Sequence record: PZ445535.1
Strand: one strand, 5' to 3'
Length of the DNA: 44,793 nucleotides
From: a phage
The notes below the pieces were generated by a model. That model worked only from the letters and a program-made list of their open reading frames with translations. It searched no databases and was not told the origin of the DNA. How positions within the stretch are numbered: the first letter of the stretch is position 1; the number at the start of each line of letters is the position of its first letter. A program made the position numbers and the translations under genes. This document shows, one piece after another, positions 1 through 44,793 of this stretch.

Positions 1-1386
1 ATGCGTAACTATGCGGCAGAACACCGCGCACTGGATCGCAAGCTGGCAAAGCGCAACCGACCACCTAAACCAACCCGTGTAGCGCAAGCGGTGCGGCTAT
101 ACCAGCCGGATTGCCTGCCGCACCAGGTAGAGCTTCTACGCGACACTAAGACCAAAATCCTCGGCCTGTGTTCCGGCTTCGGTGGCGGTAAGTCATGGTC
201 AGCAGCCCGTAAAGTCGTCCAGCTTCTATGCCTGAATCCTGGCTATGACGGCATCGTGACAGAGCCGACAATTCCACTTCTGGTTAAAATCATGTACCCG
301 GAATTGGAGAAGTCTTTCGATGAGGCCGGTTTGCGCTGGAAGTTCAACAAGCAGGACAAGATTTATAACGTACTGGTGAAGGGCAAATGGACCCGCGTAA
401 TTTGCGAGTCAATGGAGAACTACACACGCTTGATCGGTATTAACGCCGCGTGGATTGTTGCCGATGAGTTCGACACCACGAAGCAAGACGTCGCGATGGC
501 GGCATATCACAAGCTACTCGGTCGTTTGCGTGCAGGTAATGTGCGTCAGTTTGTCATCGTATCCACGCCGGAAGGCTTCCGGGCGATGTATCAAATCTTC
601 GAAGTGGAGAAGGATAGCCAAAAACGTCTGATCCGGGCGAAGACTACCGACAACCACCACTTACCGCCGGACTTTATCGACACGCTGCGGAGCCAGTACC
701 CGGCAAACCTGATTGACGCGTATCTGGACGGGAAATTCGTCAACCTGACGTCTGGTGCTGTATACAAGATGTTTGACCGCGAGCAGAACGCCAGTACCGA
801 AGAAGTGCAGCCTGAAGACACGCTAATCATCGGCATGGACTTTAACGTCACGAAGATGGCGGCGGTGGTCTACGTTAGACGGCAGCGGGTAACGGAGGCG
901 AAAGAGTTCCGCGACGAGATCCACGCGGTCGATGAATTTGTGGACCTGTTCGACACGCCTGCAATGATTGACGAGATCGAGTCCCGTTATCCTGAACATT
1001 GTGCCGCCGGTAAGGTGGTGATTTACCCGGATAGCAGCGGCAAGTCCCGCAAGACGGTCAACGCGTCATCTTCGGATATTGCACAACTGGAAGACGCAGG
1101 CTTCGAGGTGGAATACGACAGCGTTAACCCGCCGGTAAAAGACCGCCTCATTGCCATGAATACGATGATGTGTAACTCGAAGGGAGTGCGCCAGTATTTT
1201 GTGAATATGGCTAAATGCCCTACACTGGCAAAATGTTTGGAACAGCAGGTTTACGACCTGAAGAAAGGCGAGCCGGATAAAACTGCCGGTGTGGACCACA
1301 TGAACGACGCCGCGGGTTATCCGATTGTGCACCTGTTCCCAGTGATTCGACCTATTGCCGTTGTTCCGACCGTCGATTTCTACTAA
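1..1386 (+). CDS. terL: terminase large subunit (ATPase + nuclease)
   Basis: 461-aa ORF; Walker-A-like GFGGGKS near the N-terminus; acidic nuclease-type motifs (IGMDFN, VDHMNDAAGY) in the C-terminal half; portal gene starts 12 nt downstream. Confidence 0.85.
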   Translation: MRNYAAEHRALDRKLAKRNRPPKPTRVAQAVRLYQPDCLPHQVELLRDTKTKILGLCSGFGGGKSWSAARKVVQLLCLNPGYDGIVTEPTIPLLVKIMYPELEKSFDEAGLRWKFNKQDKIYNVLVKGKWTRVICESMENYTRLIGINAAWIVADEFDTTKQDVAMAAYHKLLGRLRAGNVRQFVIVSTPEGFRAMYQIFEVEKDSQKRLIRAKTTDNHHLPPDFIDTLRSQYPANLIDAYLDGKFVNLTSGAVYKMFDREQNASTEEVQPEDTLIIGMDFNVTKMAAVVYVRRQRVTEAKEFRDEIHAVDEFVDLFDTPAMIDEIESRYPEHCAAGKVVIYPDSSGKSRKTVNASSSDIAQLEDAGFEVEYDSVNPPVKDRLIAMNTMMCNSKGVRQYFVNMAKCPTLAKCLEQQVYDLKKGEPDKTAGVDHMNDAAGYPIVHLFPVIRPIAVVPTVDFY

Positions 1387-1398
1387 GAGGAAAATTTA

Positions 1399-2919
1399 AT
1401 GTCTGTAAACGTAGACAACCAACATCCACTCTACGCGCGCATTGCGCCGGAGTGGAAGATGATTAGGGACTGCGTTGCGGGTGAAAGGGCCGTGAAAGCG
1501 TGCGGCCCGCTTTACTTGCCGTTTCCGTCCAGCGGCGATAATACCGACCCGAAGGCAAAGGCCCGATACAAGGCATATAAGCAACGTGCGGTATTCCTGA
1601 ACGCCACCGCCCGCACACTGAATGCGTTGCTGGGTATCGCCTTTGCGAAGCCAGTGTCCATGAATCTGACAGGTAAGATTGCCGAGCTTATAGACGACGT
1701 AGACGGAAGCGGAATGCCGCTGCCGCAGTTGCTGCGCGGTGCGATGTCAGAAGTGCTGCAATCCGGGCGCGCTGGTTTTATGGTGGACTATGACCGCCAG
1801 GCGCATTTTGACGAACTGGGTAACGTAGTGCCGCAGACAGCCGCCGAGATGGCGATGCACCGCCCACTCATCAAACTGTACTCGGCAGAACAGATCATCA
1901 ACTGGCGACAGACCCACGGCAAAGACACCTTGATCGTGCTAAAAGAGTGCGACGAAATCAGCACTGAAGATACGGACGATTTCGCAAACCACGAAGTCAC
2001 GATCTGGACCGAGCTACGCATGGTCAACGGCAAAGCGCACGCCCGCCGCTGGTTTTTCAACGCAGACACTTCTGAAGTGCAGATGGACCTGCCGCGCGGC
2101 TTTACCAAAACCGACCTGGTGCCGTTGGTGGATTCAGCCGGTCGTGCGCTGGATAGCCTGCCGTTTTGCTGGTGTGGTGCGGTCGATAACAACGCCACTC
2201 CCGATGCCGCGCCTTTGGCGGATATTGCGTCCATCAACATTAAGCACTACAACGCCGAAGCGGACGTTGCCGAGATTGCGCACATCGTAGGCCAGCCGAC
2301 GCTAATCACAACCGGTCTGACCCAATCATGGGCGGATAAAAACCTGAAGGGTGGCATCGCGCTTGGTGCGACAAAAGGCGTTATCCTGGGTCAGAACATG
2401 GACGCAAAACTGCTGCAGGCAGAAGAGCGCAACCTGTCAGTCTCCCTGTGCGAACGCCGCGAAAAGCAGATGGCTAAACTGGGCGCGGCGCTGGTGGAGA
2501 AGGGGAGCGCACCTAAAACGGCAACCGAAGCGGCTTACGACGCGCAGACTGATAACAGCATTCTGTCACTGATTGCCGGTAACGTTGAGAAGGCATTCAA
2601 CAAGGCGCTTCAGATCGTGCAGTTGTTCACTGGAGACACTGCGGAGCAGACTGTGACCCTGAACAAGTTCTACACCGAAATCACGGTTGACGCGCAGCTA
2701 ATGACCGCAATGATGTCCGGTGTGCAGACTGGTACGGTCCGTCTCTCCGATTTCATCAAGTGGATGATGGCACAGGGAGTTATCGACGATTCGCAGACTG
2801 TAGACCAGGTTGAAGACGACTTGCGCAATCAGAATCCGTTGCCGCAAATGTCCCCGGATGCGGTAGACTTGGACGATGATGAATCGGACAAGGTAGAAGA
2901 AGATGCCGCAGAAAATTAA
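1399..2919 (+). CDS. portal protein
   Basis: 506-aa ORF directly after terL; RBS AAGAGG 8 nt upstream; acidic C-terminus; size and position typical of portal. Confidence 0.8.
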   Translation: MSVNVDNQHPLYARIAPEWKMIRDCVAGERAVKACGPLYLPFPSSGDNTDPKAKARYKAYKQRAVFLNATARTLNALLGIAFAKPVSMNLTGKIAELIDDVDGSGMPLPQLLRGAMSEVLQSGRAGFMVDYDRQAHFDELGNVVPQTAAEMAMHRPLIKLYSAEQIINWRQTHGKDTLIVLKECDEISTEDTDDFANHEVTIWTELRMVNGKAHARRWFFNADTSEVQMDLPRGFTKTDLVPLVDSAGRALDSLPFCWCGAVDNNATPDAAPLADIASINIKHYNAEADVAEIAHIVGQPTLITTGLTQSWADKNLKGGIALGATKGVILGQNMDAKLLQAEERNLSVSLCERREKQMAKLGAALVEKGSAPKTATEAAYDAQTDNSILSLIAGNVEKAFNKALQIVQLFTGDTAEQTVTLNKFYTEITVDAQLMTAMMSGVQTGTVRLSDFIKWMMAQGVIDDSQTVDQVEDDLRNQNPLPQMSPDAVDLDDDESDKVEEDAAEN

Positions 2920-4006
2920 CCAACGACTGGCGGATCGCATGATTCGCCGTCACATCTTCACCCAGCGCCTGAGCAACGAGCAGGCGCGTAAGGTGCTGGA
3001 GATGTGGCAAAAATTCCGACCTGCGTTATTGGGTAAGCTGACCGAGTTACTGGATGGCAAGAAGTCAATGAGCAATAAGGCGCTTACCACACTGCTAACC
3101 CAAATCGACAAGACGGTTAAAACCGAACTGCGCAACGAGTTTAAGGTGCTGGCTGAAGGTCTGGCGGAGTTCTCTGATACCGAGGCTGAATATCTGACAG
3201 ACACATTAACGGCAGCACTTCAACCGGCGCTTTCGGTCCCTGCCGTGGAGGTTGTTGGCGTAGTGACTGGTGCGCAGATTGCAGCGACGGCGATGAAAAA
3301 TCCATTCCTGGGGAATACGCTTTTGCAGTGGCCTGATTCTCTGTCAGAATGGACCAGAACGCAGATTAGTAACCAGGTGCGCGCCGGATTTATCCAGGGC
3401 AAACCTACTATGCAAATTATCGCGGACGTCAAGCGCGCATTAGGCGGTCGTAGCGCGCAGGCCATTTCAAGCGTGGTCAAGTCTGCGGTAAACCACTATG
3501 CGGCTACCGCACGCGAATTAATGGTAAAAGCAAATGATGATATTCTCGACGGTCGCCAGTGGCTTTCTACACTGGATACTCACACCTCCACGCTCTGTCA
3601 GTTACGCGATCGCCTGTTTTATCCGGTTGATGTTACTCCCGAAACAAAAGGGAAACGGGACGGTAAAGTGGTGGCTGGATCACAGTATGGCGCTGGTCCG
3701 GGCAAGCTACATTATTGCTGCCGCTCGACTGAGACGTGGAAAGTCAAAGGTATGGAAGATTGGCCCAGTGGTAAGCGTCCGGCACTGAAGGCTGAGGCGG
3801 GTAAACTGCTAAGTGAGCAGGTCAGCGCTAAAACGGACTTCTTCTCCTGGGTGCAACGGCAGCCTCGGCATATCCTTGAGGAATTATACGGAGTGCAGCG
3901 CGCGGACCAGATCCTGCGGGGCGTGAAAGTGCCGACCATGTTTAACGACGCAGGCGAGCTAATGACGATTCAACAACTAAAAAATAAGGGGTTATGGCGT
4001 GATTAA
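2903..4006 (+). CDS. head morphogenesis protein (Mu F / SPP1 gp7-like)
   Basis: 367 aa; overlaps portal stop by 17 nt; conserved-looking DTHTSTLC ... HYCCRS segment; position after portal. Confidence 0.6.
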   Translation: MPQKINQRLADRMIRRHIFTQRLSNEQARKVLEMWQKFRPALLGKLTELLDGKKSMSNKALTTLLTQIDKTVKTELRNEFKVLAEGLAEFSDTEAEYLTDTLTAALQPALSVPAVEVVGVVTGAQIAATAMKNPFLGNTLLQWPDSLSEWTRTQISNQVRAGFIQGKPTMQIIADVKRALGGRSAQAISSVVKSAVNHYAATARELMVKANDDILDGRQWLSTLDTHTSTLCQLRDRLFYPVDVTPETKGKRDGKVVAGSQYGAGPGKLHYCCRSTETWKVKGMEDWPSGKRPALKAEAGKLLSEQVSAKTDFFSWVQRQPRHILEELYGVQRADQILRGVKVPTMFNDAGELMTIQQLKNKGLWRD

Positions 4007-4307
4007 ATACGCAGCTATCGGATTGATTCTCGGCCTTGTAATTGGATTCTGGCAAGGTGACAACTACCGTGCTGGCGTGGTGGCGGAGGCGGCGCAAGAA
4101 GCGCAAGCCCAAGCCCAACGGCAGCAAACTAAGGTCATTCATAAATCAGTGCAGAACGAGCAGGCCCGCGAAGTGGAGTTCCGCACCGTTGAGAAAGAGG
4201 TGATTAAATATGTCACGCGTCCTGATCGCGATAATTGTAAGTTTGATGCTGACCGCGTGCGGATCAAGCAACGTGCCGTTGATGCCGCTAACGGAATCGG
4301 CAATTAA
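3999..4307 (+). CDS. i-spanin (Rz-like)
   Basis: 102 aa; GTG start; N-terminal TM segment AAIGLILGLVIGFW then charged Q/A/E-rich coiled-coil-like region; contains an embedded lipoprotein ORF in another frame. Confidence 0.6.
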   Translation: MIKYAAIGLILGLVIGFWQGDNYRAGVVAEAAQEAQAQAQRQQTKVIHKSVQNEQAREVEFRTVEKEVIKYVTRPDRDNCKFDADRVRIKQRAVDAANGIGN

Positions 4308-4440
4308 GCCGCCGTGTAAGTTTGAGTCACCATCGGAAGATCCAGATGAGGATTTAGCGATTGATGTGCGAAATATGAAATGTGGGGCTGAGCTAAGGGC
4401 GCAAGTGCTGGATTTGCAGGAATTAATTAAGGGGCCGTGA
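4210..4440 (+). CDS. o-spanin (Rz1-like) outer-membrane lipoprotein
   Basis: 76 aa; signal peptide with lipobox LTAC; Pro-rich; starts inside Rz ORF in a different frame and extends beyond it; RBS AAGAGG 9 nt upstream. Confidence 0.6.
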   Translation: MSRVLIAIIVSLMLTACGSSNVPLMPLTESAIKPPCKFESPSEDPDEDLAIDVRNMKCGAELRAQVLDLQELIKGP

Positions 4441-4455: not shown

Positions 4456-5217
4456 TTAGCGCGGAATACCGCAAATCTCGTTTAGTGTTTTCACGTCAAG
4501 CGCTACTGCCGTTGACTTTTTCTCTTCCTGCGGGATGAACTGTTTAACTTCGGGCCATGCCTTAATAAGTTTGGTGTCTGTGGTGTATTTATTCAATGTT
4601 CCCATAACCGACAATTTAAACTCATCATATTTTGCACGTAAAGCCCGGCGTGCTTTGTCGTTCTTATCCAGACGTTTGCAAAACTCATGATCTGCCGGGT
4701 AATCTGCACGACCCCGCGGCATGTAGATCGGCACTTGCTCGCCTTCCTCGTTGAGTTCCACCAGCGCCGCAAGTAGCGCCGTCGCAAACCCCGGTACGAT
4801 TTCGCCAATATCAGGGGCCATCATGTTATTGAATTTATCCTCCCAGTACCCGCGATGGCAACGCCAGCTATAGTTATCGCCACTCAATGACAGTGTGCGA
4901 ATATTCCCGCCCATGTTGACTTCGAACGTTGCGTCATATACAGACCCGATGCCGTGGGGCATGTCTTTGTTATGGCTGAAGGTAGCGCGGCTGGCGTACA
5001 CGCTTATGCTAAACATATTGTTGTATGCGTCTTGAAAGCTGCGCATCATTTTCTGCAAACCGACGAAATTGGTAACACCTTCCGGCATCTGATCCATGGT
5101 GATAGCCATAGCAAGGTCGCGCGATTCGGCCATTATCTTTTTGGCCTGCTTCGTGATTTCGTGGTCGGCCAGGATGTTAGCCAGAATCTGCTTTTTAATG
5201 TCTTTGGTCAGTCTCAT
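4456..5217 (-). CDS. hypothetical protein (reverse-oriented moron in head module)
   Basis: 253 aa (MRLTKD...); RBS GAGGAA 6 nt upstream of ATG at 5217; own sigma70-like promoter; convergent terminator shared with Rz1; no motif recognised. Confidence 0.6.
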   Translation of the reverse strand: MRLTKDIKKQILANILADHEITKQAKKIMAESRDLAMAITMDQMPEGVTNFVGLQKMMRSFQDAYNNMFSISVYASRATFSHNKDMPHGIGSVYDATFEVNMGGNIRTLSLSGDNYSWRCHRGYWEDKFNNMMAPDIGEIVPGFATALLAALVELNEEGEQVPIYMPRGRADYPADHEFCKRLDKNDKARRALRAKYDEFKLSVMGTLNKYTTDTKLIKAWPEVKQFIPQEEKKSTAVALDVKTLNEICGIPR

Positions 5218-5247
5218 CGTCATTTCCTCATTGGTTGGTGTGCAACC

Positions 5248-5276
5248 AATATATTGCAACCAACCCCCGTATGCAA
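5248..5276 (-). promoter_or_regulatory. sigma70-like promoter for moron gene (TTGCAT-N17-TATATT)
   Basis: Minus strand reads TTGCAT acgggggttggttgcaa TATATT ggttgcacacc...GAGGAA; contains ATTGGTTGCA motif. Confidence 0.45.
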
Positions 5277-5283
5277 GCAAATT

Positions 5284-5311
5284 TTGCGATTATTTTTATC
5301 ACTGATAATAT
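5284..5311 (+). promoter_or_regulatory. sigma70-like promoter for scaffold/capsid operon (TTGCGA-N16-TAATAT)
   Basis: TTGCGA at 5284-5289, TAATAT at 5306-5311, about 55 nt upstream of scaffold ATG. Confidence 0.4.
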
Positions 5312-5366
5312 TAGGGGCGTGAAGTCGAGCGGGTGGCCCGTTCTGCCACAATCCCTGGGGGATGTT

Positions 5367-6071
5367 ATGAAACTGACTAAAGCAGAATATGACGCGTTGC
5401 CAGAAGGCATGAAGGCTTTATTTGTTGCCGACGGTGACGGGTACAAGGCGACTTTTATGACCGCCGAAGAAGTACAGGCCGAGATCAAAGGTCTGAAGGA
5501 TAACAATGCAAAGCTGGTAGGTGAGAAGAAGGCAGAAGCCGAACGCCGTGCCGAAGCGGAGCGCATCGCTAAAGAGAAAGAGGAAGCCGCCGCGCGCAAA
5601 AATGGCGACCTCGAAGCGATCGACAAGTCATGGAAGGACAAATTCGCTAAATACGATGCGGATACGCAGGGCAAAATCGAAGCCTACCGTAAACAGATTC
5701 ACGATCTTACCATCGGCAGCGCAGCTAAAGACCTGGCATCAAAGCTGTTCGGTAAGAATGCTGGCATTATGCAACGCCACGTTATGGACCGCCTTGCATT
5801 GGAAGACGGCGAAGACGGCAGCCTGAAGGTGCGCGTATTGAAGGACGGCAAACCGTCCGCACTGACTATGGAAGAACTAGAAAAAGAGTTCCGTAGTAAC
5901 GAAGATTTCGCATCCGTCCTGGCTGGTACTCCTGCCGGTGGTGCGCCGAGTAAGCCGACCCACGTCATCGACGATCCGAAATCTAAGATCCAGATGGGCC
6001 ATAGCTTCGGCATTACTGACCTTACCAAACAGGCCAGCGATATTATCGCCAAACTGGGCGACGACGAGTAA
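5367..6071 (+). CDS. scaffolding protein (putative)
   Basis: 235 aa; highly charged with AEAERRAEAERIAKEKEEAAARK coiled-coil segment; immediately upstream of major capsid gene. Confidence 0.5.
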   Translation: MKLTKAEYDALPEGMKALFVADGDGYKATFMTAEEVQAEIKGLKDNNAKLVGEKKAEAERRAEAERIAKEKEEAAARKNGDLEAIDKSWKDKFAKYDADTQGKIEAYRKQIHDLTIGSAAKDLASKLFGKNAGIMQRHVMDRLALEDGEDGSLKVRVLKDGKPSALTMEELEKEFRSNEDFASVLAGTPAGGAPSKPTHVIDDPKSKIQMGHSFGITDLTKQASDIIAKLGDDE

Positions 6072-6076
6072 GCAGG

Positions 6077-6101
6077 TTGCCCGCGAAAGCGGGCAATTTT
6101 G
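6077..6101 (+). terminator. weak intrinsic terminator / attenuator between scaffold and capsid genes
   Basis: TTGCCCGC-GAAA-GCGGGCAA hairpin followed by TTTT. Confidence 0.4.
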
Positions 6102-6168
6102 CGAGCATGAAAAATTAGGGTAACATTAAAAGCACTGGGCGATTGCTCTCTACTCAAAGGATAAATTT

Positions 6169-7281: not shown

Positions 7282-7298
7282 TTGGTGCATACCCAAAC

Positions 7299-7325
7299 GG
7301 GGCGGGCTTAAGCCCGCCTTTTTTA
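7299..7325 (+). terminator. intrinsic terminator after major capsid gene
   Basis: GGCGGGCTTAAGCCCGCC perfect hairpin followed by TTTTTT. Confidence 0.75.
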
Positions 7326-7338
7326 TAGGAGCAATAAC

Positions 7339-7839
7339 ATGTATGGCGACCCGCAAACATTTGTAGACTATGCCAATGCGCGAGGCGTAGAAGTCACGCT
7401 GGGCGATGCGACGCAGCACTTGACAGTCGTTAACGACTTCCTGAACGGCCTCGACTGGATCGGCGACCCTGCGGACCACCTCGGGATCGATGCGTGGCCT
7501 CGTATAAATTTCCTCTCCGACGGTAAGCCGGTGCGAGACGCAGCTACTAAAGACGTACGCACTGTTCCGAAAGGCCAGAAGGTCGAGTTTTCGGCAATCC
7601 CCGTTGCCGTTGAGCAGGCTGTTTATCGTCTGGCCATGGCGGTGGCTGACGATATTGATATTTCCCCGATCGGCAGTGGGAAAGAGACAATCCGCGAAAC
7701 GGTAGGCCCAATCACGATGGAATACGACCCCGCCACCATTGGCGATTCCGTATCATTCCCGTGGTGGGACGGTATGCTTGGTTATTGGCTGAACACCGAA
7801 GGCAACGCCGCCGGTAACTTTGACGTATACAGAGGTTAA
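7339..7839 (+). CDS. head completion / head-tail adaptor protein (putative)
   Basis: 166 aa; RBS AGGAG; first gene after the capsid terminator; function inferred from position only. Confidence 0.4.
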   Translation: MYGDPQTFVDYANARGVEVTLGDATQHLTVVNDFLNGLDWIGDPADHLGIDAWPRINFLSDGKPVRDAATKDVRTVPKGQKVEFSAIPVAVEQAVYRLAMAVADDIDISPIGSGKETIRETVGPITMEYDPATIGDSVSFPWWDGMLGYWLNTEGNAAGNFDVYRG

Positions 7840-7841
7840 TT

Positions 7842-7961
7842 ATGAATCCCGCAATCATCGTAGCTATGCTGGCGGCATTGGCTACTAAAGAAGACGAGCC
7901 AGAAGTGGAACAACAGGATCCAGACCCGGAGGAAGGAGGCGAAGACGATGGCGGGCTTTGA
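7842..7961 (+). CDS. small acidic hypothetical protein
   Basis: 39-codon ORF MNPAIIVAMLAALATKEDEPE...; starts 3 nt after the previous stop; overlaps next start; not in the supplied ORF track (below size cut-off). Confidence 0.25.
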   Translation: MNPAIIVAMLAALATKEDEPEVEQQDPDPEEGGEDDGGL

Positions 7962-38920: not shown

Positions 38921-39030
38921 AATTTGCGCGCATTGGTTGCCGATATGGGAATTCCCATATCGCTAAAAGATTAAATTCTGCGCGCATTGGTTGCCAGATT
39001 GAGCATTAAATCTATATCGCATTGGTTGCC
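38912..39030. repeat. three direct repeats containing GCGCATTGGTTGCC plus perfect 22-bp palindrome
   Basis: 30-bp repeats at 38912-38941 and 38966-38995 (54-bp period), partial third at 39018-39030; palindrome CGATATGGGAATTCCCATATCG at 38941-38962. Confidence 0.75.
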
Positions 39031-39068
39031 GTGTAGTGCTAAATAAGTGAATAGTTATGCAAAATAAG

Positions 39069-39240
39069 TGCATAAAACAAACGGGACAAAAACGGGACAA
39101 ACTACAAGCGGGACAAAACGGGACGTCCCGCCGTCCCCGTCAGGCGTGGTGCGGATTTGAGGCGAACGGGACAAGCGGGACAGACCACAGTCTTTCAGAC
39201 TAGACGGGGGGTATTGTCCCCCCTCCGTCTGAGACTGCAT
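39069..39240. repeat. iteron-rich element B (second copy of element A core)
   Basis: 32-mer GTGCATAAAACAAACGGGACAAAAACGGGACA identical to 11018-11049; GGGACGTCCCGCCGTCCC; CGGGACAAGCGGGACA; G6/C6 inverted repeat at 39188-39237. Confidence 0.8.
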
Positions 39241-39396
39241 AAAATCTCTGGTTGCATAATCAACGGCAGCATAGTGAAAATTGCGGCGGGGGTAGATCTC
39301 GGCAACCAATGCATGTTGGATAATGGAGAGTGAAAAATGCAGTTTGCAATTGCAACTCATAGCGATCAGCATTTCCATGCGCGTGATTGATATTGG

Positions 39397-39425
39397 TTGC
39401 ATTCAGCCTGGCACCTTGCTATATT
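39397..39425 (+). promoter_or_regulatory. sigma70-like promoter (TTGCAT-N17-TATATT) for early genes at 39454+
   Basis: attggTTGCATtcagcctggcaccttgcTATATTggttgcacaccaac; shares a 20-nt block with the promoter at 5248-5276. Confidence 0.5.
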
Positions 39426-39453
39426 GGTTGCACACCAACATGAGGACTGAACG

Positions 39454-39759
39454 ATGAGAGCATTAATCTGGAGTTACACATCAGCGGTCGCAGCGCTCTA
39501 TGAAGCGAAGCACACAAACGGCAACGCCGACCACGCACGCCAGGCTGTCATGTTCGCGCAGCAGGCAATCTTTGCAGCGTTCGACAACATGGACGCCAGC
39601 CTGGATGAACTGGAACCATTGCGTGTGGCAATCTGCGAGTATGCGATGAAATTCGCCCGTGAGCGTCTTGCTTACCGGTTTGGCATCGGCGAAACGGCGA
39701 CGGCTAACATCGCCCGCATTCAGGCCCAGCGTGAGCTACACGCCTTACTTGCGAAATAA
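39454..39759 (+). CDS. hypothetical early protein
   Basis: 101 aa; RBS GAGGA; first gene after promoter TTGCAT-N17-TATATT. Confidence 0.5.
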   Translation: MRALIWSYTSAVAALYEAKHTNGNADHARQAVMFAQQAIFAAFDNMDASLDELEPLRVAICEYAMKFARERLAYRFGIGETATANIARIQAQRELHALLAK

Positions 39760-39768
39760 GGGGCTAAA

Positions 39769-40044
39769 ATGGCATGTAGACGCGCTAAATGGCTATCCTG
39801 GTATATCCCCCTGCATTGCATACGAATATGGGCACAGAATGCGATTGATGGCGATTCTGTGTTCTGGAGCTATCGGGATGACGTCAAGCCGCTGACGCAG
39901 ACCAAAATGCTGCACCAGTTCATGAACGAACACGGGCTACCGGTGAAAACATCATTGCAACCAATGGGGATTCGTATTACATTACGCCGGAAGCCCGCCG
40001 TTGAGCGGGTAGGCAAACACTGGAGACTGCGCAAATGTTCTTAG
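39769..40044 (+). CDS. hypothetical early protein
   Basis: 91 aa; RBS AAGGGG 5 nt upstream. Confidence 0.5.
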   Translation: MACRRAKWLSWYIPLHCIRIWAQNAIDGDSVFWSYRDDVKPLTQTKMLHQFMNEHGLPVKTSLQPMGIRITLRRKPAVERVGKHWRLRKCS

Positions 40045-40169
40045 ACGGAATATCGCAGGCGTTTATCGACCTGCATATGTGCGTACTTGACTACGAACAA
40101 AACGGCATCGCTACGGTATGCGATGGCGACACAAAATCAATTGACGAGATCGAGGAGACAGAACAATGA
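40035..40169 (+). CDS. small hypothetical protein
   Basis: 44-aa ORF with RBS GGAG 9 nt upstream; overlaps neighbours at both ends (ATGA at 3' end); not in supplied track. Confidence 0.3.
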   Translation: MFLDGISQAFIDLHMCVLDYEQNGIATVCDGDTKSIDEIEETEQ

Positions 40170-40723
40170 AATTACTATTCCGCCGTAAGCATGACGGTCG
40201 CATCTTGAAGCTGATCCAGACCCTGGATTCCTACGTCCACTTGCGCCACGCGGCAAGCGATAGAGTATTCCGCGCGCAGAAGACCACGTTGCCGCAGTTC
40301 TTCGAAGTCCTCTCTCATGATATTGAGCGCGGCGATGTGCTGCGGGATATTCGCGATGGGCAATTGTGGGTCGTGGAGTGTGCGGGATTTAATAACCTTC
40401 GTATACAGACACGCATGGGTGGCGTATCGGGCAACATGATTAGGGGAATGACGTACTTCGGGCTAATCCACTACGAGCGCGTGGGGCGTAACTATAAACT
40501 TAAGCGCCCTGGTGTAGTGGCGAAAGAGATCACCCGTACGGAACACCCATATACCAAATACGACGAGCGCAAGGTGCGCGAGCATATCGACAACGCCAGA
40601 GCACAGGCTGCCGCTATGATTCGGGCTGGCAACGATGCCAAACGATTTGGGATTGGTGTTCTTCTGGTCTACCCCGACGGCAGCATGAAGTCTACCGATC
40701 CGCGCGGGGTCATTCTGAAATGA
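40166..40723 (+). CDS. hypothetical early protein
   Basis: 185 aa; RBS GAGGAG 8 nt upstream. Confidence 0.5.
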   Translation: MKLLFRRKHDGRILKLIQTLDSYVHLRHAASDRVFRAQKTTLPQFFEVLSHDIERGDVLRDIRDGQLWVVECAGFNNLRIQTRMGGVSGNMIRGMTYFGLIHYERVGRNYKLKRPGVVAKEITRTEHPYTKYDERKVREHIDNARAQAAAMIRAGNDAKRFGIGVLLVYPDGSMKSTDPRGVILK

Positions 40724-40860
40724 GCGCCGTGATTCGTGATGTGCTAATGCATAACCGCTTTGAGATTGGCGGTCGTGTATTCCGTAACTACTTCGTTGCG
40801 CGCGCCTGGGCGCGCCATATTGGAAAACCGGAGAGTGAAATAAAATGCTATACGATGTGA
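40720..40860 (+). CDS. small hypothetical protein
   Basis: 46-aa ORF with ATGA overlap to upstream gene; no clear RBS; overlaps start of next gene. Confidence 0.2.
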   Translation: MSAVIRDVLMHNRFEIGGRVFRNYFVARAWARHIGKPESEIKCYTM

Positions 40861-41132
40861 TATTTTGGTTTGGTTTATTCTGCGCAATCTTGCTGGTTGG
40901 CGCTGTTACTCTGGTGATTGCAGTCTGGTTTATATGGCCTGCCGTCGAGGCTGTGAGCATTACGCGCATGACCTTTGCCTACTATAAAAAACAAGGAATC
41001 ACGGAACACTCCAGTCGGCTTAAGGTGTGGTGGCTGTGGTATCGAGATATGCTAGGAGGAAGGCGATTTGAAGCAATGCGGTCGCACGGCTGGGAGTGGA
41101 AAGGCGTAGGACGCTGGTCAATTTCAGAATAA
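40845..41132 (+). CDS. membrane protein
   Basis: 95 aa; two hydrophobic segments (FWFGLFCAILLVGAVTLVIAVWFIW); RBS GGAGAG 9 nt upstream; intrinsic terminator follows. Confidence 0.5.
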   Translation: MLYDVIFWFGLFCAILLVGAVTLVIAVWFIWPAVEAVSITRMTFAYYKKQGITEHSSRLKVWWLWYRDMLGGRRFEAMRSHGWEWKGVGRWSISE

Positions 41133-41186: not shown

Positions 41187-41489
41187 ATGGAAGTTTTCCA
41201 CAAATTAGATGAATGGGTAATTATCGCCGCTGCCGGTGTGGCGGGTGGCTTCGTAGGTGCGCGTATGCACCCGGAAGCTGCACAAGGACCGGTAAACTTT
41301 GTGCTGTTCGTCGTCGTTGGCTTCCTGTGTGCGGTATTTGGCGCACCAGCCATCGCCGAACTGACCGGCTTGACCAGTCGGCGCATGATCGCAGGTCTTG
41401 GGTTCGTAACGGCAATCTTCTGGATGCCGATTGCGGCACGGATCCGCGAGCTAATCGCTAATGCCCGCTTTCCGGGAGGTGCCAAATGA
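41187..41489 (+). CDS. holin-like membrane protein
   Basis: 100 aa with three predicted TM segments; directly upstream of second membrane protein and endolysin. Confidence 0.5.
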   Translation: MEVFHKLDEWVIIAAAGVAGGFVGARMHPEAAQGPVNFVLFVVVGFLCAVFGAPAIAELTGLTSRRMIAGLGFVTAIFWMPIAARIRELIANARFPGGAK

Positions 41490-41752
41490 TTTTCGGCGTC
41501 GATGTTTGTGCGTGGTTTGGCGTTCTGTTCTTCCTCATCGTCGGCGTGTCGTCGCTGTACAACGTCTACGCCGCATCCGTGAATGACGGCCTTGTTGGTC
41601 GTGTGCTCTATCTCTTAACGGCGGTCTTCTGCGTGGTCGGCTTGATGCAAACCGGGCACGTGGAGAACGCCACTATCAACGCCATTTGCTGGCTGTTTGC
41701 GTTGCGCACACTGCGTAACGCTGTTCTGAAAGGTGTAAAACATGCAATTTAG
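41486..41752 (+). CDS. holin / antiholin-like membrane protein
   Basis: 88 aa with three hydrophobic segments; ATGA overlap with upstream gene; overlaps endolysin start. Confidence 0.45.
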   Translation: MIFGVDVCAWFGVLFFLIVGVSSLYNVYAASVNDGLVGRVLYLLTAVFCVVGLMQTGHVENATINAICWLFALRTLRNAVLKGVKHAI

Positions 41753-42227
41753 CGAGAATGGTCTGCGGTTTACTGCCGCATGGGAAACGTTTAGTCCAGT
41801 GCCCTACTTCGCCACGAAGAAGGAGCAGGAGCAGGGTCTGTATACCTGGGGCTTCGGTCACACGGGAACTAATCCGCCGCGCAGCATTACCCGCACTGAG
41901 GCAATGGAACTACTGCGCAAGGATATTGCCATTGCCGAGAAGTTTGTGCAGCGCGCAATGCCGATCGGGGCGTTCAACCAGGCCCAGTACGACGCGCTTG
42001 TGGATCTGGTCTTCAACGTAGGGCCGCGTGCCATCGGTGCTAATACCGGAACTGGTCGTGCAGTTCGTGCCGGTGATATTCAGACGATCCGTGCTAAACT
42101 GCCACAATTCCGTATGCAAGCCGGGGTTGTTGTCAAGGGTCTGGTGCGTCGCGCTAATGGGCGCCTGGCACTGTTCGATGGTAAGCAGTGGGACGTTGCC
42201 GAGCGTATCGGTCGCAATTCAGCTTAA
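41742..42227 (+). CDS. endolysin (phage lysozyme, T4-lysozyme/GH24-like)
   Basis: 161 aa; N-terminal ENGLRFTAAWE...GLYTWGFGHT and central QAQYDALVDLVFNVG align with the T4 lysozyme catalytic region; RBS AAGGTG. Confidence 0.8.
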   Translation: MQFSENGLRFTAAWETFSPVPYFATKKEQEQGLYTWGFGHTGTNPPRSITRTEAMELLRKDIAIAEKFVQRAMPIGAFNQAQYDALVDLVFNVGPRAIGANTGTGRAVRAGDIQTIRAKLPQFRMQAGVVVKGLVRRANGRLALFDGKQWDVAERIGRNSA

Positions 42228-42236: not shown

Positions 42237-42644
42237 ATGTTAAAAAGTATTCTTGATCATAATGCGGACGCGCTCGATGCGTTGTCTAAAACGGAAGACG
42301 CTGGCGCGCGTCGAATCATTGCAGACACCATCAGCCATGCCGGAGTGTTTGGTGCAAGCCTTCCGGGACCGAAGCCGGATGTGAAGGTGACAAGCGCCAC
42401 AGTAACGGTAACACCAGAGGCAGTTACAATCGGCACCCAGTCTAAGGCTATGGTGGCGGTGCAACCGGCAGGGGCGACCGATAAATCCGGCGTGTGGATT
42501 AGTGGGTCGCCAACCATCGCCACCGTTGACGCTTCGGGTAATATCGACGGCAAAACGCCCGGTTCTGTCGATATTATTTGGGTGGCTAAGGATGGAAGCG
42601 GGGTGTCGGGCCGAAAAACGGTAACTGTGGCAAACGCCGAGTAA
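42237..42644 (+). CDS. bacterial Ig-like (Big_2-type) domain protein
   Basis: 135 aa; C-terminal VTVTPEAVTIGTQSKA...GSVDIIWVAKDGSGVSGRKTVTV beta-sandwich-like pattern; RBS AAGGGGGAG; terminator downstream. Confidence 0.45.
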   Translation: MLKSILDHNADALDALSKTEDAGARRIIADTISHAGVFGASLPGPKPDVKVTSATVTVTPEAVTIGTQSKAMVAVQPAGATDKSGVWISGSPTIATVDASGNIDGKTPGSVDIIWVAKDGSGVSGRKTVTVANAE

Positions 42645-42649
42645 AGAGC

Positions 42650-42677
42650 AAGCCCGCAACTATGGCGGGCTTTTTAT
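42650..42677 (+). terminator. intrinsic terminator after lysis cassette / Ig-like gene
   Basis: GCCCGC-AACTATG-GCGGGC hairpin followed by TTTTT. Confidence 0.7.
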
Positions 42678-42680
42678 TGC

Positions 42681-42710
42681 TTGACTTGCAACCAATTAAT
42701 ATCTCATACT
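42681..42710 (+). promoter_or_regulatory. candidate promoter (TTGACT-N18-CATACT) with TGCAACCAAT motif
   Basis: TTGACTtgcaaccaattaatatctCATACT directly after terminator; upstream of HTH-phosphoesterase gene. Confidence 0.3.
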
Positions 42711-42762
42711 TCTGTCGCCGTGGTATATTGATCGCGGTCAAACTGAATCAGGAAAATATACG

Positions 42763-43905
42763 ATGCACCCTCAAACCAAAATTACAGACGAGCAGTTGAT
42801 CGCCGAAATCCAGGCGGGAACGACCGCGAAAGATATTGCTAAGAAATACGGGATTGCACTGCGCAATGTTTATATGCGCAAAGCACGCTTATCTAAAAAG
42901 GGAATCGGTCACGGTAATGATGCCGTAATTCGTAAGCGGGTTGCCGATGGCTTCGGCGTGAAGCGTGTCTCCGCCCTGGTGCGTGGCAATGGCGAAGAGG
43001 TCATGTCATGGGTTATCACAGAACAGGACAAAGAGCGACAGCTTGAGGCGATGCGCGCAGTGCTGGACGGCATGAACAGCGAAATCACACCGGCAGCACC
43101 AGTAAGCGCCCCGCCAGTACCGATCCAGGCGCTTGACCTGCTCAACCTGTACACCGTGTCTGACTTCCACCTGGGAATGCTGGCATGGGGCGAGGAGACT
43201 GGCGAAGACTGGGATATGGCGATTGCCGAAGACCTGTTCTACCGCTGGTTTGTCGAAGCCTTCGCACGCGCACCGGACGCAGGCACTGCCGTAATTAATA
43301 TCCTCGGTGATATGGCGCACTTTGACAGTCTCGATGCCGTTACTCCCGCCAGTGGTCACATCCTTGACGCCGACACCCGCTACCAGAAGCTGGTCCGCTA
43401 CATGATTCGCATGGTGCGCAATGTGGTGGAACTGGCACTACAGAAGCACCACAAAGTCAAACTGCTAATTGTGCAGGGCAACCATGACGAAAGCGGAATG
43501 ATCTGGCTGGCGGAGATGTTCGCTACGCTGTACGAGAACGAGCCGCGCGTTGAGGTAGACACGTCGCCAGATGTCTATAAGATGGTCCAGCACGGTAAGA
43601 CTACGCTGTTCTTCCACCACGGGCACAAGGCTAAATTTGACGCTATCGAGCCGGTCATGATTTCGAAATTTCGTGAGGCGTTCGGGTCCAGCCAGTACAG
43701 CTATGCGCACGTAGGCCACCTGCACCACCAGAAGATTGTCGAATCGCGCAACATGATTGTTGAACAGCACCGAACGCTTGCCGCGAAGGACGCCTACGCC
43801 AGCCGAGGCGGTTGGATGAGCGGACGCAGTGCAAACGTGATAACCTATAGCGCGAACTACGGTGAAGTAGCACGCTTAACCATTAGCCCGGAAATGTTGA
43901 AATGA
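42763..43905 (+). CDS. HTH domain - metallophosphoesterase fusion protein
   Basis: 380 aa; N-terminal HTH-like TAKDIAKKYGIALRNVYMRKARL; calcineurin-like motifs SDFHLG (DxH), ILGDMAHFD (GDxxD), QGNHDE (GNHD/E), HHGH, GHLHH. Confidence 0.6.
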   Translation: MHPQTKITDEQLIAEIQAGTTAKDIAKKYGIALRNVYMRKARLSKKGIGHGNDAVIRKRVADGFGVKRVSALVRGNGEEVMSWVITEQDKERQLEAMRAVLDGMNSEITPAAPVSAPPVPIQALDLLNLYTVSDFHLGMLAWGEETGEDWDMAIAEDLFYRWFVEAFARAPDAGTAVINILGDMAHFDSLDAVTPASGHILDADTRYQKLVRYMIRMVRNVVELALQKHHKVKLLIVQGNHDESGMIWLAEMFATLYENEPRVEVDTSPDVYKMVQHGKTTLFFHHGHKAKFDAIEPVMISKFREAFGSSQYSYAHVGHLHHQKIVESRNMIVEQHRTLAAKDAYASRGGWMSGRSANVITYSANYGEVARLTISPEMLK

Positions 43906-44148: not shown

Positions 44149-44173
44149 TGTCTGCAATTCTCCCTGATATAAT
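44145..44173 (+). promoter_or_regulatory. extended -10 promoter (TGaTATAAT) for terS-terL operon
   Basis: Perfect TATAAT at 44168-44173 preceded by TG at 44165-44166; weak -35 TTTGTG; 6-bp stem-loop in leader at 44180-44196. Confidence 0.5.
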
Positions 44174-44242
44174 CAAGACAGGTGGTTGGGCCACCTCCTA
44201 TGTTGCCGATGGTCGGCGCATATGTATAAAGGGGTTATTATC

Positions 44243-44793
44243 ATGGCAGAAATCAAAGTAAAAGGCCGTCGTGCGAAGTTAGACGGGCGAGTCGCAGTCA
44301 CTCCACGCCGCAAACCGGGCGAGCAAACCGAACATACCAATCTCGGACCTGAAATCGAATACGGCAAGCGCCGGAAAGGGGGCAAGTGTGGTCGTCCTAC
44401 TGATTATCGGTCTGTTTATTGTCGCCAGTTGCGAGATTATTTCGCTTCAGCCGACGCATGGCAAGTCAACTACTCGGACAAGGGCGCGGCGCAAGTCATC
44501 CCACGTAACAAGATGCCAACATTTGGGCGCTTTGCGGCGGAAATCGGGGTCGGCGTAGCATGTCTGTATCGCTGGGCGCGTAAGCATGAAGAATTCGCCG
44601 AGGCGATGGCTGACGCTATGGAACTGCAAAAGACCTTCCTCATGGAAGCTGGCGGCGTGACTATCGCAGCAGGCTTCGCTGCATTCCTGCTTAAAGCAAA
44701 CCACGGCGTCCGCGACGATGCACCGCTGGAAGATGACGACGATGATAACGGCGACGTAACCGTTGAGCCGGTCGGTAAAGGGCAGGGCGAGTG
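44243..44793 (+). CDS. terS: terminase small subunit-like protein (3'-partial in window; stop overlaps position 1 if circular)
   Basis: Open frame from ATG 44243 (RBS AAAGGGG) to window end with no stop; HTH-like FGRFAAEIGVGVACLYRWARKHEEF; codon 184 would be T-G + A(1) = TGA overlapping terL ATG; strong extended -10 promoter upstream. Confidence 0.5.
   Translation, partial: MAEIKVKGRRAKLDGRVAVTPRRKPGEQTEHTNLGPEIEYGKRRKGGKCGRPTDYRSVYCRQLRDYFASADAWQVNYSDKGAAQVIPRNKMPTFGRFAAEIGVGVACLYRWARKHEEFAEAMADAMELQKTFLMEAGGVTIAAGFAAFLLKANHGVRDDAPLEDDDDDNGDVTVEPVGKGQGE

What the first reader, a model, noticed from the sequence alone, without database searches (positions are those of the whole stretch)
1..44793. 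No lysogeny module detected; likely virulent phage
I found no integrase-like ORF, no CI/Cro-like divergent repressor pair and no attachment-site-like tRNA fragment. The gene set is dominated by replication enzymes and early takeover genes, consistent with a strictly lytic lifestyle.
Basis: inference. Interest (0 to 1): 0.2.

Follow-up and report, generated by a model that had tools for sequence, protein, structure and literature searches.

The report
Virulent Dhillonvirus genome, no lysogeny genes
The window is a complete genome of a well-known group of strictly lytic E. coli phages (genus Dhillonvirus), and every test for lysogeny genes or integrated copies came back negative, so the finding is correct but ordinary.

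Summary
The window is a whole, circularly closed Dhillonvirus (SO-1/HK578-like siphovirus) genome. It is about 90% identical to Escherichia phage Ioannina and Dhillonvirus LM40P1.

Pfam, PHROGs and NCBIfam scans of 69 called ORFs, and a Pfam scan of 55 further ORFs of at least 100 aa from all six frames, found none of the following:
- tyrosine or serine recombinase, or DDE transposase;
- CI/LexA-type repressor, Cro or excisionase;
- ParA/ParB or protelomerase.

There is no tRNA or tRNA fragment. Called ORFs cover 97% of the sequence and the largest gap is 108 bp. No DNA match exists in 5,426 complete E. coli genomes or in 72,556 plasmids. Capsid-protein relatives occur only on contigs of 45 kb or less.

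- 53% of the genome is packaging and structural genes, so replication genes do not dominate.
- The same replication cassette occurs in an integrated E. coli prophage that has an integrase and a LexA-type repressor, so the cassette says nothing about lifestyle.

PHROGs labels it "transposase / integration and excision". It has only a DNA-binding domain, so the label is misleading.

The parts
44186..44793 (+). Small terminase subunit. The ORF runs to the window end and its stop codon TGA is completed by window base 1, so the window is a closed circular permutation.
   Evidence: PHROG phrog_3064 terminase E 1e-69. Pfam GP3_package/Sf6_terminase, weak. Junction read.
1..4006 (+). Large terminase (1-1386), portal (1399-2919) and head morphogenesis protein (2903-4006).
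   Evidence: Terminase_6N/6C and DUF4055. phrog_241 head morphogenesis E 3e-109.
3999..4440 (+). Rz-like i-spanin (3999-4307) and overlapping Rz1-like o-spanin lipoprotein (4210-4440). They lie far from the holin/endolysin genes.
   Evidence: phrog_2536, phrog_5672 and phrog_1267, Rz-like spanin.
4456..5280 (-). Nmad5 (nucleotide-modification-associated domain 5) gene, on the opposite strand inside the head module.
   Evidence: Pfam PF18757 E 2e-43.
5235..20114 (+). Scaffold, major capsid protein (6169-7281), connector proteins, tail tube, chaperone, tape measure (11257-13899), minor tail proteins and J-like tail tip (16668-20114).
   Evidence: Gp13-like MCP E 3e-59 and TMP_2. Phage_tail_3, Phage_TAC_4, Phage_tail_L, Prok-JAB and NLPC_P60. 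phrog_31 central tail fiber J.
20142..21379 (-). Receptor-binding-protein locus: DUF6453 protein (20142-21116) and small lipoprotein (21110-21379). This is not a lysogeny gene.
   Evidence: PF20051 E 8e-123. PF24052 Phage_lipoprotein E 1e-19. The RBP loci downstream of gpJ are described in PMC8594841.
21416..23329 (+). Lateral tail fibre with a C-terminal intramolecular chaperone domain. Bases 21988-23330 have no nucleotide match to phage Ioannina.
   Evidence: Peptidase_S74 E 8e-9. Unaligned segment found.
23355..23930 (-). 191-aa protein of unknown function, the last gene of the leftward operon. This is the position where the related E. coli prophage carries its integrase. It is not a recombinase.
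   Evidence: No Pfam hit. phrog_10558, unknown function. No PDB sequence match. AF2 pLDDT 71.5. Foldseek best E 0.067, to PD-(D/E)XK restriction-enzyme folds, with no recombinase among the matches.
23975..35379 (-). Leftward replication and DNA-modification operon: DUF6378 protein, HAD phosphatase, Dam methylase (25216-25848), HNH, second methyltransferase (26819-27535), SNF2 helicase (27532-29031), VRR-NUC nuclease (29435-29713), family A DNA polymerase (29906-32197), Enc34/Gp2.5-like SSB (32423-33286), DUF2800 PD-(D/E)XK nuclease (33516-34946) and small ORFs.
   Evidence: Pfam hits and PHROGs hits. Five of these proteins are 31-53% identical and syntenic with an integrated E. coli prophage.
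35554..36060 (-). 168-aa very acidic protein (pI 4.5; 53 D+E), the first gene leftward of the divergent junction. It occupies the slot that holds the LexA-family repressor in the related prophage, but it is unrelated to that repressor and has no DNA-binding domain.
   Evidence: phrog_3127, unknown function, aligned from residue 40 of the long ORF. No Pfam or NCBIfam hit. No similarity to the prophage repressor. Composition.
36061..36313 (.). Divergent early control region. It holds leftward sigma70-like promoters (36241-36213 and 36137-36108), a rightward TTGACA at 36254, and a minus-strand hairpin plus T-run at about 36185-36140. There is no array of repeated operators.
36314..36643 (+). 109-aa DNA-binding protein made of a long helix plus a C-terminal helix-turn-helix. 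It is the first gene of the rightward operon. PHROGs labels it 'transposase / integration and excision', but it has no catalytic domain.
   Evidence: phrog_9366 E 8e-57. Pfam HTH_23 1e-5 and Sigma70_r4_2 3e-5 on residues ~66-105 only. NCBIfam IS630 transposase 19 bits against a cutoff of 100, covering model positions 3-36 of 299, and sigma70-ECF region 4. AF2 pLDDT 87.5. Foldseek gives only 33-44-residue HTH matches, E>0.7.
36653..38920 (+). Replicative helicase-primase.
   Evidence: AAA_25 E 5e-21. Annotated as replicative helicase in relatives.
38921..39453 (.). Non-coding island with five CGGGACA iteron-like repeats, a strong hairpin and seven TGGTTGC motifs. It shares a ~215-bp repeat with 10995-11206.
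10802..11256 (.). Second non-coding island, between the tail chaperone and the tape measure gene, with eight CGGGACA repeats and the same hairpin.
39454..41132 (+). Small ORFs of unknown function. None has a regulator or recombinase signature.
   Evidence: PHROGs families of unknown function. No Pfam or NCBIfam hits.
41187..42227 (+). Lysis cassette: two holins (41187-41489 and 41486-41752) and the endolysin (41742-42227).
   Evidence: phrog_2359 and phrog_2508 holin. Phage_lysozyme E 8e-22.
42237..43905 (+). Ig-like (Big_2) domain protein (42237-42644) and metallophosphoesterase (42763-43905).
   Evidence: Pfam Big_2, Metallophos_2 and Metallophos.

Best explanation
The window is the complete 44,793-bp genome of a Dhillonvirus (SO-1/HK578-like siphovirus of E. 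coli) that can only grow lytically.

Inferred course of infection (not measured here): host RNA polymerase starts at divergent sigma70-type promoters in 36061-36313. Leftward transcription expresses an acidic early protein and then a self-contained replication and DNA-modification set (nuclease, SSB, DNA polymerase A, VRR-NUC, SNF2 helicase, two methyltransferases). Rightward transcription expresses a small HTH DNA-binding protein, the helicase-primase, small ORFs, holins, endolysin and terminase, and continues around the circle into the head and tail genes. DNA is packaged by a TerS/TerL pair; headful packaging is reported for close relatives. Cells are lysed by holin, endolysin and spanins.

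The genome encodes nothing that could integrate it, maintain it as a plasmid, or hold it repressed. Lysogeny is therefore not available to it.

Shown here: gene content, the absence of lysogeny functions, the absence of integrated copies, and genus membership. Inferred: the order of transcription and the role of the HTH protein as a regulator of the lytic programme.
For: Identity of the genome:
- It is 89.8% identical over 100% of bases 1-20000, and 90-92% identical over 85-86% of the remainder, to Escherichia phage Ioannina and Dhillonvirus LM40P1. There are 159-214 related phage records, almost all Escherichia.
- The genome is closed: the terS stop codon spans the window junction.

No lysogeny genes:
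- No recombinase, transposase-catalytic, repressor, excisionase, partition or protelomerase family in 69 called ORFs, nor in 55 shadow ORFs >=100 aa.
- ORFs cover 97.3% of the window; the largest gap is 108 bp.
- No tRNA or tRNA fragment.

No integrated or plasmid copies:
- No match in 5,426 complete E. coli genomes by megablast.
- No match by blastn for the terminase-portal, capsid and junction-helicase segments.
- No match in 72,556 plasmids for the half searched, bases 23355-44793.
- No close MCP relative in 185,579 species genomes.
- MCP relatives (28 clusters, 40-88% identity) and HTH relatives (24 clusters) occur only on contigs <=45.8 kb.

Literature:
- SO-1-like phages (Dhillonvirus) are a virulent cluster with headful packaging (PMC9022532).
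- No lysogeny genes were found in other members (PMC10059673, PMC12677095).
Against: - One paper on another member (EE09, PMC10673088) argued it is 'likely a temperate phage'. Its grounds were a 'putative transposase' gene, a PHACTS score of 0.514, raised host HflK and a lower burst at high MOI. PhaTYP gave virulent at 0.99 in the same paper, and the authors called the question open.
- PHROGs files the HTH gene under 'integration and excision'.
- About 20 small ORFs have no known function, so a completely novel maintenance mechanism cannot be excluded by profile searches.
- Absence from genome databases is negative evidence.
- Only complete E. coli genomes and one genome per species were searched at the DNA or protein level.
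Confidence: 0.93

Rival explanations
1. The phage is temperate by a cryptic or non-canonical route. The 109-aa 'transposase'-labelled HTH protein, or unknown small ORFs, would establish a repressed, integrated or episomal state, as suggested for the Dhillonvirus EE09.
For: The PHROG label 'transposase, integration and excision' for 36314-36643. The EE09 paper's indirect arguments and PHACTS 0.514 (PMC10673088). A divergent promoter junction with an HTH gene resembles the layout of an immunity region. About 20 ORFs are of unknown function.
Against: - The HTH protein matches only the DNA-binding HTH: IS630 model positions 3-36 of 299, 19 bits against a cutoff of 100. It has no DDE, rve or recombinase domain.
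- No other recombinase exists in any frame.
- The leftward partner is an acidic protein with no HTH.
- No integrated or episomal copy exists in 5,426 complete E. coli genomes or in PLSDB, although more than 150 free-phage isolates are known.
- Relatives of MCP and of the HTH protein are never on contigs longer than a phage genome.
Confidence: 0.03
2. The phage is virulent but can persist in a carrier state or pseudolysogeny without any dedicated module. That could mimic temperate behaviour in culture, for example reduced burst at high MOI.
For: The EE09 observations are compatible with this. Sequence data cannot exclude it. It does not contradict the absence of lysogeny genes.
Against: Nothing in the sequence specifically supports it. 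There are no partition or plasmid-maintenance genes and no episomal copies in isolate assemblies.
Confidence: 0.05
3. The lysogeny module exists but lies outside the window, i.e. the window is a fragment of a larger prophage or genome.
For: The finding was made on a window of unknown origin. The terS ORF runs off the end of the window.
Against: The terS stop codon is completed by base 1 of the window, in the same TGATG overlap with terL as in phage Ioannina. The window is collinear end to end with complete 45-kb genomes and all of their modules are present. Its length of 44,793 bp falls in the genus range of 43-46 kb (PMC8594841).
Confidence: 0.01

Closest known systems
Escherichia phage Ioannina (OQ589852) and Dhillonvirus LM40P1 (OZ035746/780/811), genus Dhillonvirus
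   Same: Genome size, gene order and all modules are the same. Identity is 89-92% over 85-100% of the sequence, and the HTH protein is 97% identical.
   Different: About 2.5 kb has no nucleotide match to Ioannina: the distal tail fibre (21988-23330) and several small-ORF segments. Identity times coverage is roughly 83%, below the 95% species line, so it is probably a different species of the same genus.
SO-1-like / HK578-like virulent cluster (Grose and Casjens 2014, as cited in PMC9022532)
   Same: Siphovirus of about 45 kb and about 54% G+C with no tRNA genes, its own family A polymerase and helicase-primase, circular assemblies with headful packaging, and virulent.
   Different: Nothing relevant to lifestyle.
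Integrated E. coli prophage next to yfhL (NZ_AP024130 about 1,254,505 onward; seen in 26 of 5,426 genomes)
   Same: A syntenic leftward replication cassette: SNF2 helicase (52.5% aa identity), VRR-NUC/PDDEXK nuclease (42%), DNA polymerase A (40.5%), SSB (32%) and DUF2800 nuclease (31%). It is followed by a divergent junction and a rightward HTH gene plus a large primase-helicase.
   Different: The prophage has a tyrosine integrase at the end of the cassette, a LexA-family repressor and a small HTH at the junction, Rha/Arc/antiterminator Q regulators and a lambda-like head module. The window has none of these. Its junction proteins and helicase-primase are unrelated to those of the prophage.
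IS630/IS3-type transposases and Mu-like transposable phages
   Same: The 109-aa protein shares the small HTH DNA-binding motif found at the N-terminus of such transposases.
   Different: There is no catalytic DDE domain, no MuB-like ATPase and no terminal inverted repeats. The protein is 109 aa, against about 300-660 aa for these transposases.

Membership tests
Genus Dhillonvirus (ICTV) | Nucleotide identity of roughly 70% or more over the whole genome to members of the genus | tested here: met
   89.8% over 100% of bases 1-20000, and 90-92% over 85-86% of bases 20001-44793, to Ioannina/LM40P1. About 81% identity to Oekolampad, JLBYU60, StarDew and others.
Genus Dhillonvirus (ICTV) | Genome of 43-46 kb with a siphovirus structural module, its own PolA and helicase-primase, and no tRNA | tested here: met
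   44,793 bp. Modules shown. 0 tRNA. Size range from PMC8594841.
Temperate phage with integrative lysogeny module | Tyrosine or serine site-specific recombinase (integrase) | tested here: not met
   No PF00589, PF00239 or PF07508 hit at E<=0.01 in 124 ORFs from all six frames. No PHROG integrase. The positional candidate 23355-23930 has no recombinase fold.
Temperate phage with integrative lysogeny module | CI-type repressor (HTH_3 plus S24 peptidase, or equivalent) divergent from a Cro-type gene | tested here: not met
   No HTH_3, Peptidase_S24 or Cro family. The junction pair is an acidic 168-aa protein and an HTH_23/sigma-r4-like 109-aa protein. Neither resembles the LexA-family/HTH pair of the related prophage.
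Temperate phage with integrative lysogeny module | attP related to a host site, often the 3' end of a tRNA | tested here: not met
   No tRNA or tRNA fragment. No megablast match to any E. coli genome. Identities shorter than 28 bp were not searched.
Temperate phage with integrative lysogeny module | Integrated copies in host genomes | tested here: not met
   None in 5,426 complete E. coli genomes. No MCP relative in 185,579 species genomes. MCP and HTH relatives occur only on contigs <=45.8 kb.
Transposable (Mu-like) phage / IS transposase | DDE/RNase-H-fold catalytic transposase domain | tested here: not met
   The protein labelled 'transposase' (36314-36643) matches only the HTH: IS630 model positions 3-36 of 299, 19 bits against a cutoff of 100; Pfam HTH_Tnp_1 E 0.007. 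The model is helices only. There is no rve or DDE hit elsewhere.
Plasmid prophage (P1/N15-like) | Partition system (ParA/ParB) or protelomerase, and occurrence as a plasmid in isolates | tested here: not met
   No ParA, ParB, CbiA or protelomerase family. No match in 72,556 PLSDB plasmids for bases 23355-44793, the only part searched there. No match among plasmids of complete E. coli assemblies.
Virulent lifestyle (phenotype) | Clear plaques, no lysogens, no immunity in survivors | not testable with these tools
   Only literature on relatives is available: a virulent cluster (PMC9022532), lytic isolates (PMC12677095, PMC10059673) and one dissenting suggestion (PMC10673088).

The most novel reading that the evidence does not exclude
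Dhillonviruses could keep a non-integrative, repressor-like silent state. In this reading, the conserved 109-aa HTH protein binds the dispersed TGGTTGCA motif that overlaps the -35 or spacer of at least six promoters and shuts down the genome. That would explain the temperate-like behaviour reported for EE09. A milder version is that the HTH protein is a sigma region-4-like factor that times the lytic programme through those sites.
Probability: 0.04. Interest if true: 0.55.

Novelty: already known. Interest (0 to 1): 0.08.

Why it matters
The finding matters little as a discovery. Dhillonviruses are a common, repeatedly isolated group of lytic coliphages, and the lack of lysogeny genes is the reason they are proposed for therapy and biocontrol.

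The practical value is a caution for annotation. The PHROG label 'transposase / integration and excision' on a 109-aa HTH protein has already fed a published suggestion that a member of the genus is temperate. A large replication gene set does not indicate lifestyle either, because the same cassette sits in an integrated E. coli prophage that has an integrase and a LexA-type repressor.

Tried and rejected
- **Hidden integrase in an alternative frame.** 55 ORFs >=100 aa outside the gene set gave no Pfam hit except the Serglycin artefact of my GS linker. Rejected.
- **Integrase at the end of the leftward operon, as in the related prophage.** The 191-aa protein at 23355-23930 has no Pfam or PDB sequence match. 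Its AF2 model (pLDDT 71.5) gives only non-significant resemblance to PD-(D/E)XK restriction-enzyme folds. Rejected as a recombinase; its function is still unknown.
- **HTH protein as Cro homologue.** It has no similarity to the prophage HTH, no HTH_3 hit, and only short generic HTH matches by fold search. Its role is undetermined.
- **Acidic 168-aa protein as repressor.** It has no HTH, a pI of 4.5, and no similarity to the LexA-family protein. Rejected.
- **'kilA anti-repressor' annotated in Ioannina.** The corresponding window ORF (29182-29391) has no Pfam, PHROG or NCBIfam hit. Not supported.
- **Operator arrays in the divergent region.** Only short chance-level repeats and one palindrome were found.
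- **Rfam.** Three sub-threshold leader/sRNA matches were taken as chance.
- **185-aa ORF at 40166-40723.** No PDB match.
- **TerL relatives in bacterial genomes.** They are only 36-50% identical, lie in Acinetobacter, Burkholderiales and similar hosts, and share at most TerL, portal and MCP at 24-40% identity. They are distant prophages, not integrated copies of this phage.
- **One call failed for length and one for coordinates.**

Full report
**What the window is**

Megablast of both halves against 50,697 phage records finds 159-214 related genomes, almost all Escherichia phages of the genus Dhillonvirus. The best are Dhillonvirus LM40P1 and Escherichia phage Ioannina. They are 89.8% identical over all of bases 1-20000 and 90-92% identical over 85-86% of the rest. 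The Ioannina record is a circular 45,270-bp genome with the same gene order. A direct blastn shows end-to-end collinearity, with only about 2.5 kb unaligned.

The window starts at the ATG of the large terminase. The small-terminase ORF runs to the last base of the window, and its TGA stop is completed by window base 1. This is the same TGATG overlap as in Ioannina. The window is therefore a complete, circularly closed genome, and no module can be hiding outside it. G+C is 51-56% and there are no tRNA genes.

**Gene content**

I took a gene set of 70 ORFs that covers 97.3% of the bases. The largest uncovered stretch is 108 bp. Pfam, PHROGs and NCBIfam on the early small ORFs give the following map.

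- Plus strand, 44186 through the junction to 23329: terS, terL, portal, head morphogenesis protein, spanins, scaffold, Gp13-like capsid protein, connectors, tail tube, chaperone, tape measure, minor tail proteins L/K/I, J-like tip and a lateral fibre. This run is interrupted by two minus-strand insets: an Nmad5 gene (4456-5280) and the receptor-binding locus (DUF6453 protein plus lipoprotein, 20142-21379).
- Minus strand, 23355-36060: a 191-aa unknown, a DUF6378 protein, HAD phosphatase, Dam, HNH, a second methyltransferase, SNF2 helicase, VRR-NUC, DNA polymerase A, Enc34/Gp2.5-like SSB, a DUF2800 PD-(D/E)XK nuclease, small ORFs and an acidic 168-aa protein.
- Plus strand, 36314-44185: a 109-aa HTH protein, helicase-primase, small ORFs, two holins, endolysin, an Ig-like protein and a metallophosphoesterase.

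Packaging and structure take 53.4% of the genome. Replication and modification take 34.8%.

**Test 1: recombinases and repressors**

None of the 69 called ORFs scanned by Pfam matches any of these at E<=0.01: tyrosine recombinase, serine recombinase or resolvase, a DDE/rve transposase core, HTH_3/XRE, S24 peptidase, Cro, excisionase, Arc, Rha, ParA/ParB or protelomerase.

To cover miscalled genes, I also scanned the 55 other ORFs of at least 100 aa from all six frames. They gave nothing except a Serglycin hit caused by my GS linker. With 97% coding density and no gap above 108 bp, there is no room for an unseen integrase.

The only item any library files under lysogeny is window 36314-36643, which matches phrog_9366 'transposase, integration and excision' over its full 109 residues (E 8e-57).

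**The 'transposase'**

- Pfam sees only a C-terminal helix-turn-helix (HTH_23 1e-5, Sigma70_r4_2 3e-5, HTH_Tnp_1 0.007) at about residues 66-105.
- NCBIfam matches sigma-70 region 4. It also matches positions 3-36 of the 299-position IS630 transposase model, at 19 bits against a cutoff of 100.
- An AlphaFold model built from 19 homologues (pLDDT 87.5) is a short helix, one long helix (21-79) and a two-helix HTH.
- Foldseek against the PDB gives only 33-44-residue matches to generic HTH domains of LuxR/GerE regulators, IS transposase N-termini and recombinase C-termini, all with E above 0.7. A profile search of PDB sequences adds nothing.
- Residues 47-106 are almost invariant across the family, while the N-terminus varies.

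It is therefore a small, probably dimeric, DNA-binding protein without any catalytic domain. The label is inherited from the HTH alone. This matters because a paper on the Dhillonvirus EE09 used a 'putative transposase' gene, together with a PHACTS score of 0.514 and indirect proteomic arguments, to suggest that EE09 is 'likely a temperate phage'. In that same paper PhaTYP scored it virulent at 0.99 (PMC10673088).

**The divergent junction**

Strictly that is right, but a divergent control region does exist at 36061-36313.

- It has leftward sigma70-like promoters (TTGACA-18-TATTAT at 36137-36108, and TTGAAA-17-AATAAT at 36241-36213).
- It has a rightward TTGACA at 36254.
- It has a minus-strand hairpin plus T-run between the two leftward promoters.
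- It has no repeated operator set.

The rightward first gene is the HTH protein. The leftward first gene is a 168-aa protein with pI 4.5 and 53 acidic residues, with no DNA-binding domain and no family assignment beyond phrog_3127.

**Test 2: integrated copies**

- Megablast of both halves against 5,426 complete E. coli genomes (20,395 replicons, plasmids included) finds nothing.
- More sensitive blastn of the terminase-portal, capsid and junction-helicase segments also finds nothing.
- Megablast of bases 23355-44793, the only part searched there, against 72,556 PLSDB plasmids finds nothing.
- A scan of one genome for each of 185,579 bacterial and archaeal species finds no relative of the capsid protein.
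- The same scan finds terminase relatives of only 36-50% identity, in Acinetobacter, Burkholderiales, Flavobacterium and similar hosts. These share at most terminase, portal and capsid at 24-40% identity. They are distant prophages, not copies of this phage.
- In the 15-billion-protein collection, the 28 clusters of capsid relatives (40-88% identity) and the 24 clusters of HTH-protein relatives are found only on contigs of 45.8 kb or less, never on chromosome-sized contigs.
- The 191-aa protein's six relatives show the same pattern.

More than 150 free-phage isolates of this group are in GenBank. Against that background, the total absence of integrated or episomal copies is strong evidence for an obligately lytic group.

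**An instructive relative**

The only E. coli chromosomal hit was a weak match (69-71% identity over 176 nt to 1.6 kb) to a prophage DNA polymerase in 26 genomes. That prophage is integrated next to yfhL.

It carries the same leftward cassette in the same order: SNF2 helicase (52.5% amino-acid identity), VRR-NUC/PDDEXK nuclease (42%), polymerase A (40.5%), SSB (32%) and DUF2800 nuclease (31%). A divergent junction and a rightward HTH plus a large primase-helicase follow.

There, a tyrosine integrase closes the cassette, and a LexA-family repressor with a small HTH gene sits at the junction. In the window, the equivalent slots hold the 191-aa unknown protein and the acidic protein/HTH pair. These are unrelated to the prophage proteins.

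I tested the 191-aa protein as a positional integrase candidate. It has no Pfam or PDB sequence match. Its model (pLDDT 71.5) resembles, non-significantly, PD-(D/E)XK restriction-enzyme folds and no recombinase.

Two conclusions follow. The replication cassette is a mobile module that says nothing about lifestyle. The window really does lack the two functions that make its prophage relative temperate.

**Test 3: attachment-site remnants**

ARAGORN finds no tRNA. Rfam at E<=1 finds no tRNA fragment, only three sub-threshold leader/sRNA matches that I take as chance. Identities shorter than 28 bp with host sites were not searched.

**Literature**

- SO-1-like phages, equivalent to Dhillonvirus, were defined as a virulent cluster. 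Their assemblies circularise, and PhageTerm predicts headful packaging (PMC9022532).
- Other members were reported to lack lysogeny genes (PMC10059673, PMC12677095).
- The BASEL work treats them as small lytic siphoviruses with RBP loci downstream of gpJ (PMC8594841).
- The Ioannina paper does not discuss lifestyle.
- The single dissent is the EE09 paper discussed above, and its authors called the question open.

**Verdict**

The absence of a lysogeny module is real, and the lytic interpretation is well supported (confidence about 0.93). The finding is a known property of a known genus, so interest is low.

- The genome is mostly structural.
- The replication cassette is not evidence for lifestyle.
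- A divergent junction with an HTH gene exists, and one widely used library mislabels that gene as a transposase.

By identity times coverage (about 83% to the nearest records), the genome is probably a separate species within Dhillonvirus. That is an inference, not a formal VIRIDIC calculation.

**Seen in passing**

Two non-coding islands (10802-11256 and 38921-39453) share a ~215-bp repeat. Each carries an array of CGGGACA repeats and a conserved strong hairpin.

A TGGTTGC(A) motif occurs 26 times against 7.5 expected. It is typically paired in front of genes and overlaps sigma70-like -35 TTGCA(A/T) and -10 TATATT elements. Both motifs are conserved at the homologous places in Ioannina. They look like origin iterons and a dispersed promoter/operator motif. 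Whether the HTH protein binds either one is untested.

Noticed in passing
window 10802-11256 and 38921-39453: Two non-coding islands share a ~215-bp direct repeat (10995-11206 and 39045-39260, about 82% identical). They hold 13 of the genome's 14 CGGGACA copies (8 and 5, all on the plus strand; 5.9 expected genome-wide), followed by a conserved strong hairpin (GACGGGGG...CCCCCC..GTC). The arrays look like iterons. One island lies just after the helicase-primase gene and the other, oddly, between the tail chaperone and the tape measure gene. Both are conserved in phage Ioannina.
   Followed up: partly
window 5242/5256(-), 21372/21389(-), 24563/24575(+), 26473/26490(-), 33250/33266(+), 38934-39425(+): The motif TGGTTGC(A) occurs 26 times against 7.5 expected. 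It is usually in pairs 12-31 bp apart just upstream of genes, overlapping sigma70-like -35 TTGCA(A/T) and -10 TATATT hexamers. This looks like a dispersed promoter/operator motif and is a candidate target of the 109-aa HTH protein. That link is inference only.
   Followed up: partly
L002 (NZ_AP024130.1 1240741-1282353), prophage from about 13765 of the locus: An integrated E. coli prophage next to yfhL, present in 26 of 5,426 complete genomes, carries a replication cassette syntenic with the window's (SNF2, VRR-NUC, PolA, SSB, DUF2800; 31-53% aa identity). It combines this with a tyrosine integrase, a LexA-family repressor, a TIR-domain protein, antiterminator Q and a lambda-like head module.
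   Followed up: partly
window 3999-4440: Rz-like and Rz1-like spanin genes (the second overlapping the first) sit between the head-morphogenesis gene and the Nmad5 gene. They are about 37 kb from the holin-holin-endolysin cassette at 41187-42227.
   Followed up: no
window 36140-36241: In the divergent control region, a leftward promoter-like site (36241-36213) is followed about 30-70 nt downstream by a minus-strand hairpin plus an 11-T run (about 36185-36140). A second leftward promoter (36137-36108) comes after that. This could be a short leftward transcript or an attenuator.
   Followed up: no
window 21988-23330: The distal two thirds of the lateral tail fibre gene, including its Peptidase_S74 chaperone domain, has no nucleotide match to the closest relative Ioannina. 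This is a host-range module swap. The gene also contains an internal repeat about 105 bp apart (21957 and 22062).
   Followed up: no
window 4456-5280 (-): An Nmad5 (nucleotide modification associated domain 5) gene is transcribed against the surrounding head genes from its own TGGTTGCA-type promoter. Its function in these phages is unknown.
   Followed up: no
window 32423-33286 (-): The Enc34/Gp2.5-like SSB has a long C-terminal tail of alternating basic and acidic repeats (PRKSKKSKRRDDDD...). The acidic early protein at 35554-36060 has a similar K/E/D-rich low-complexity core.
   Followed up: no
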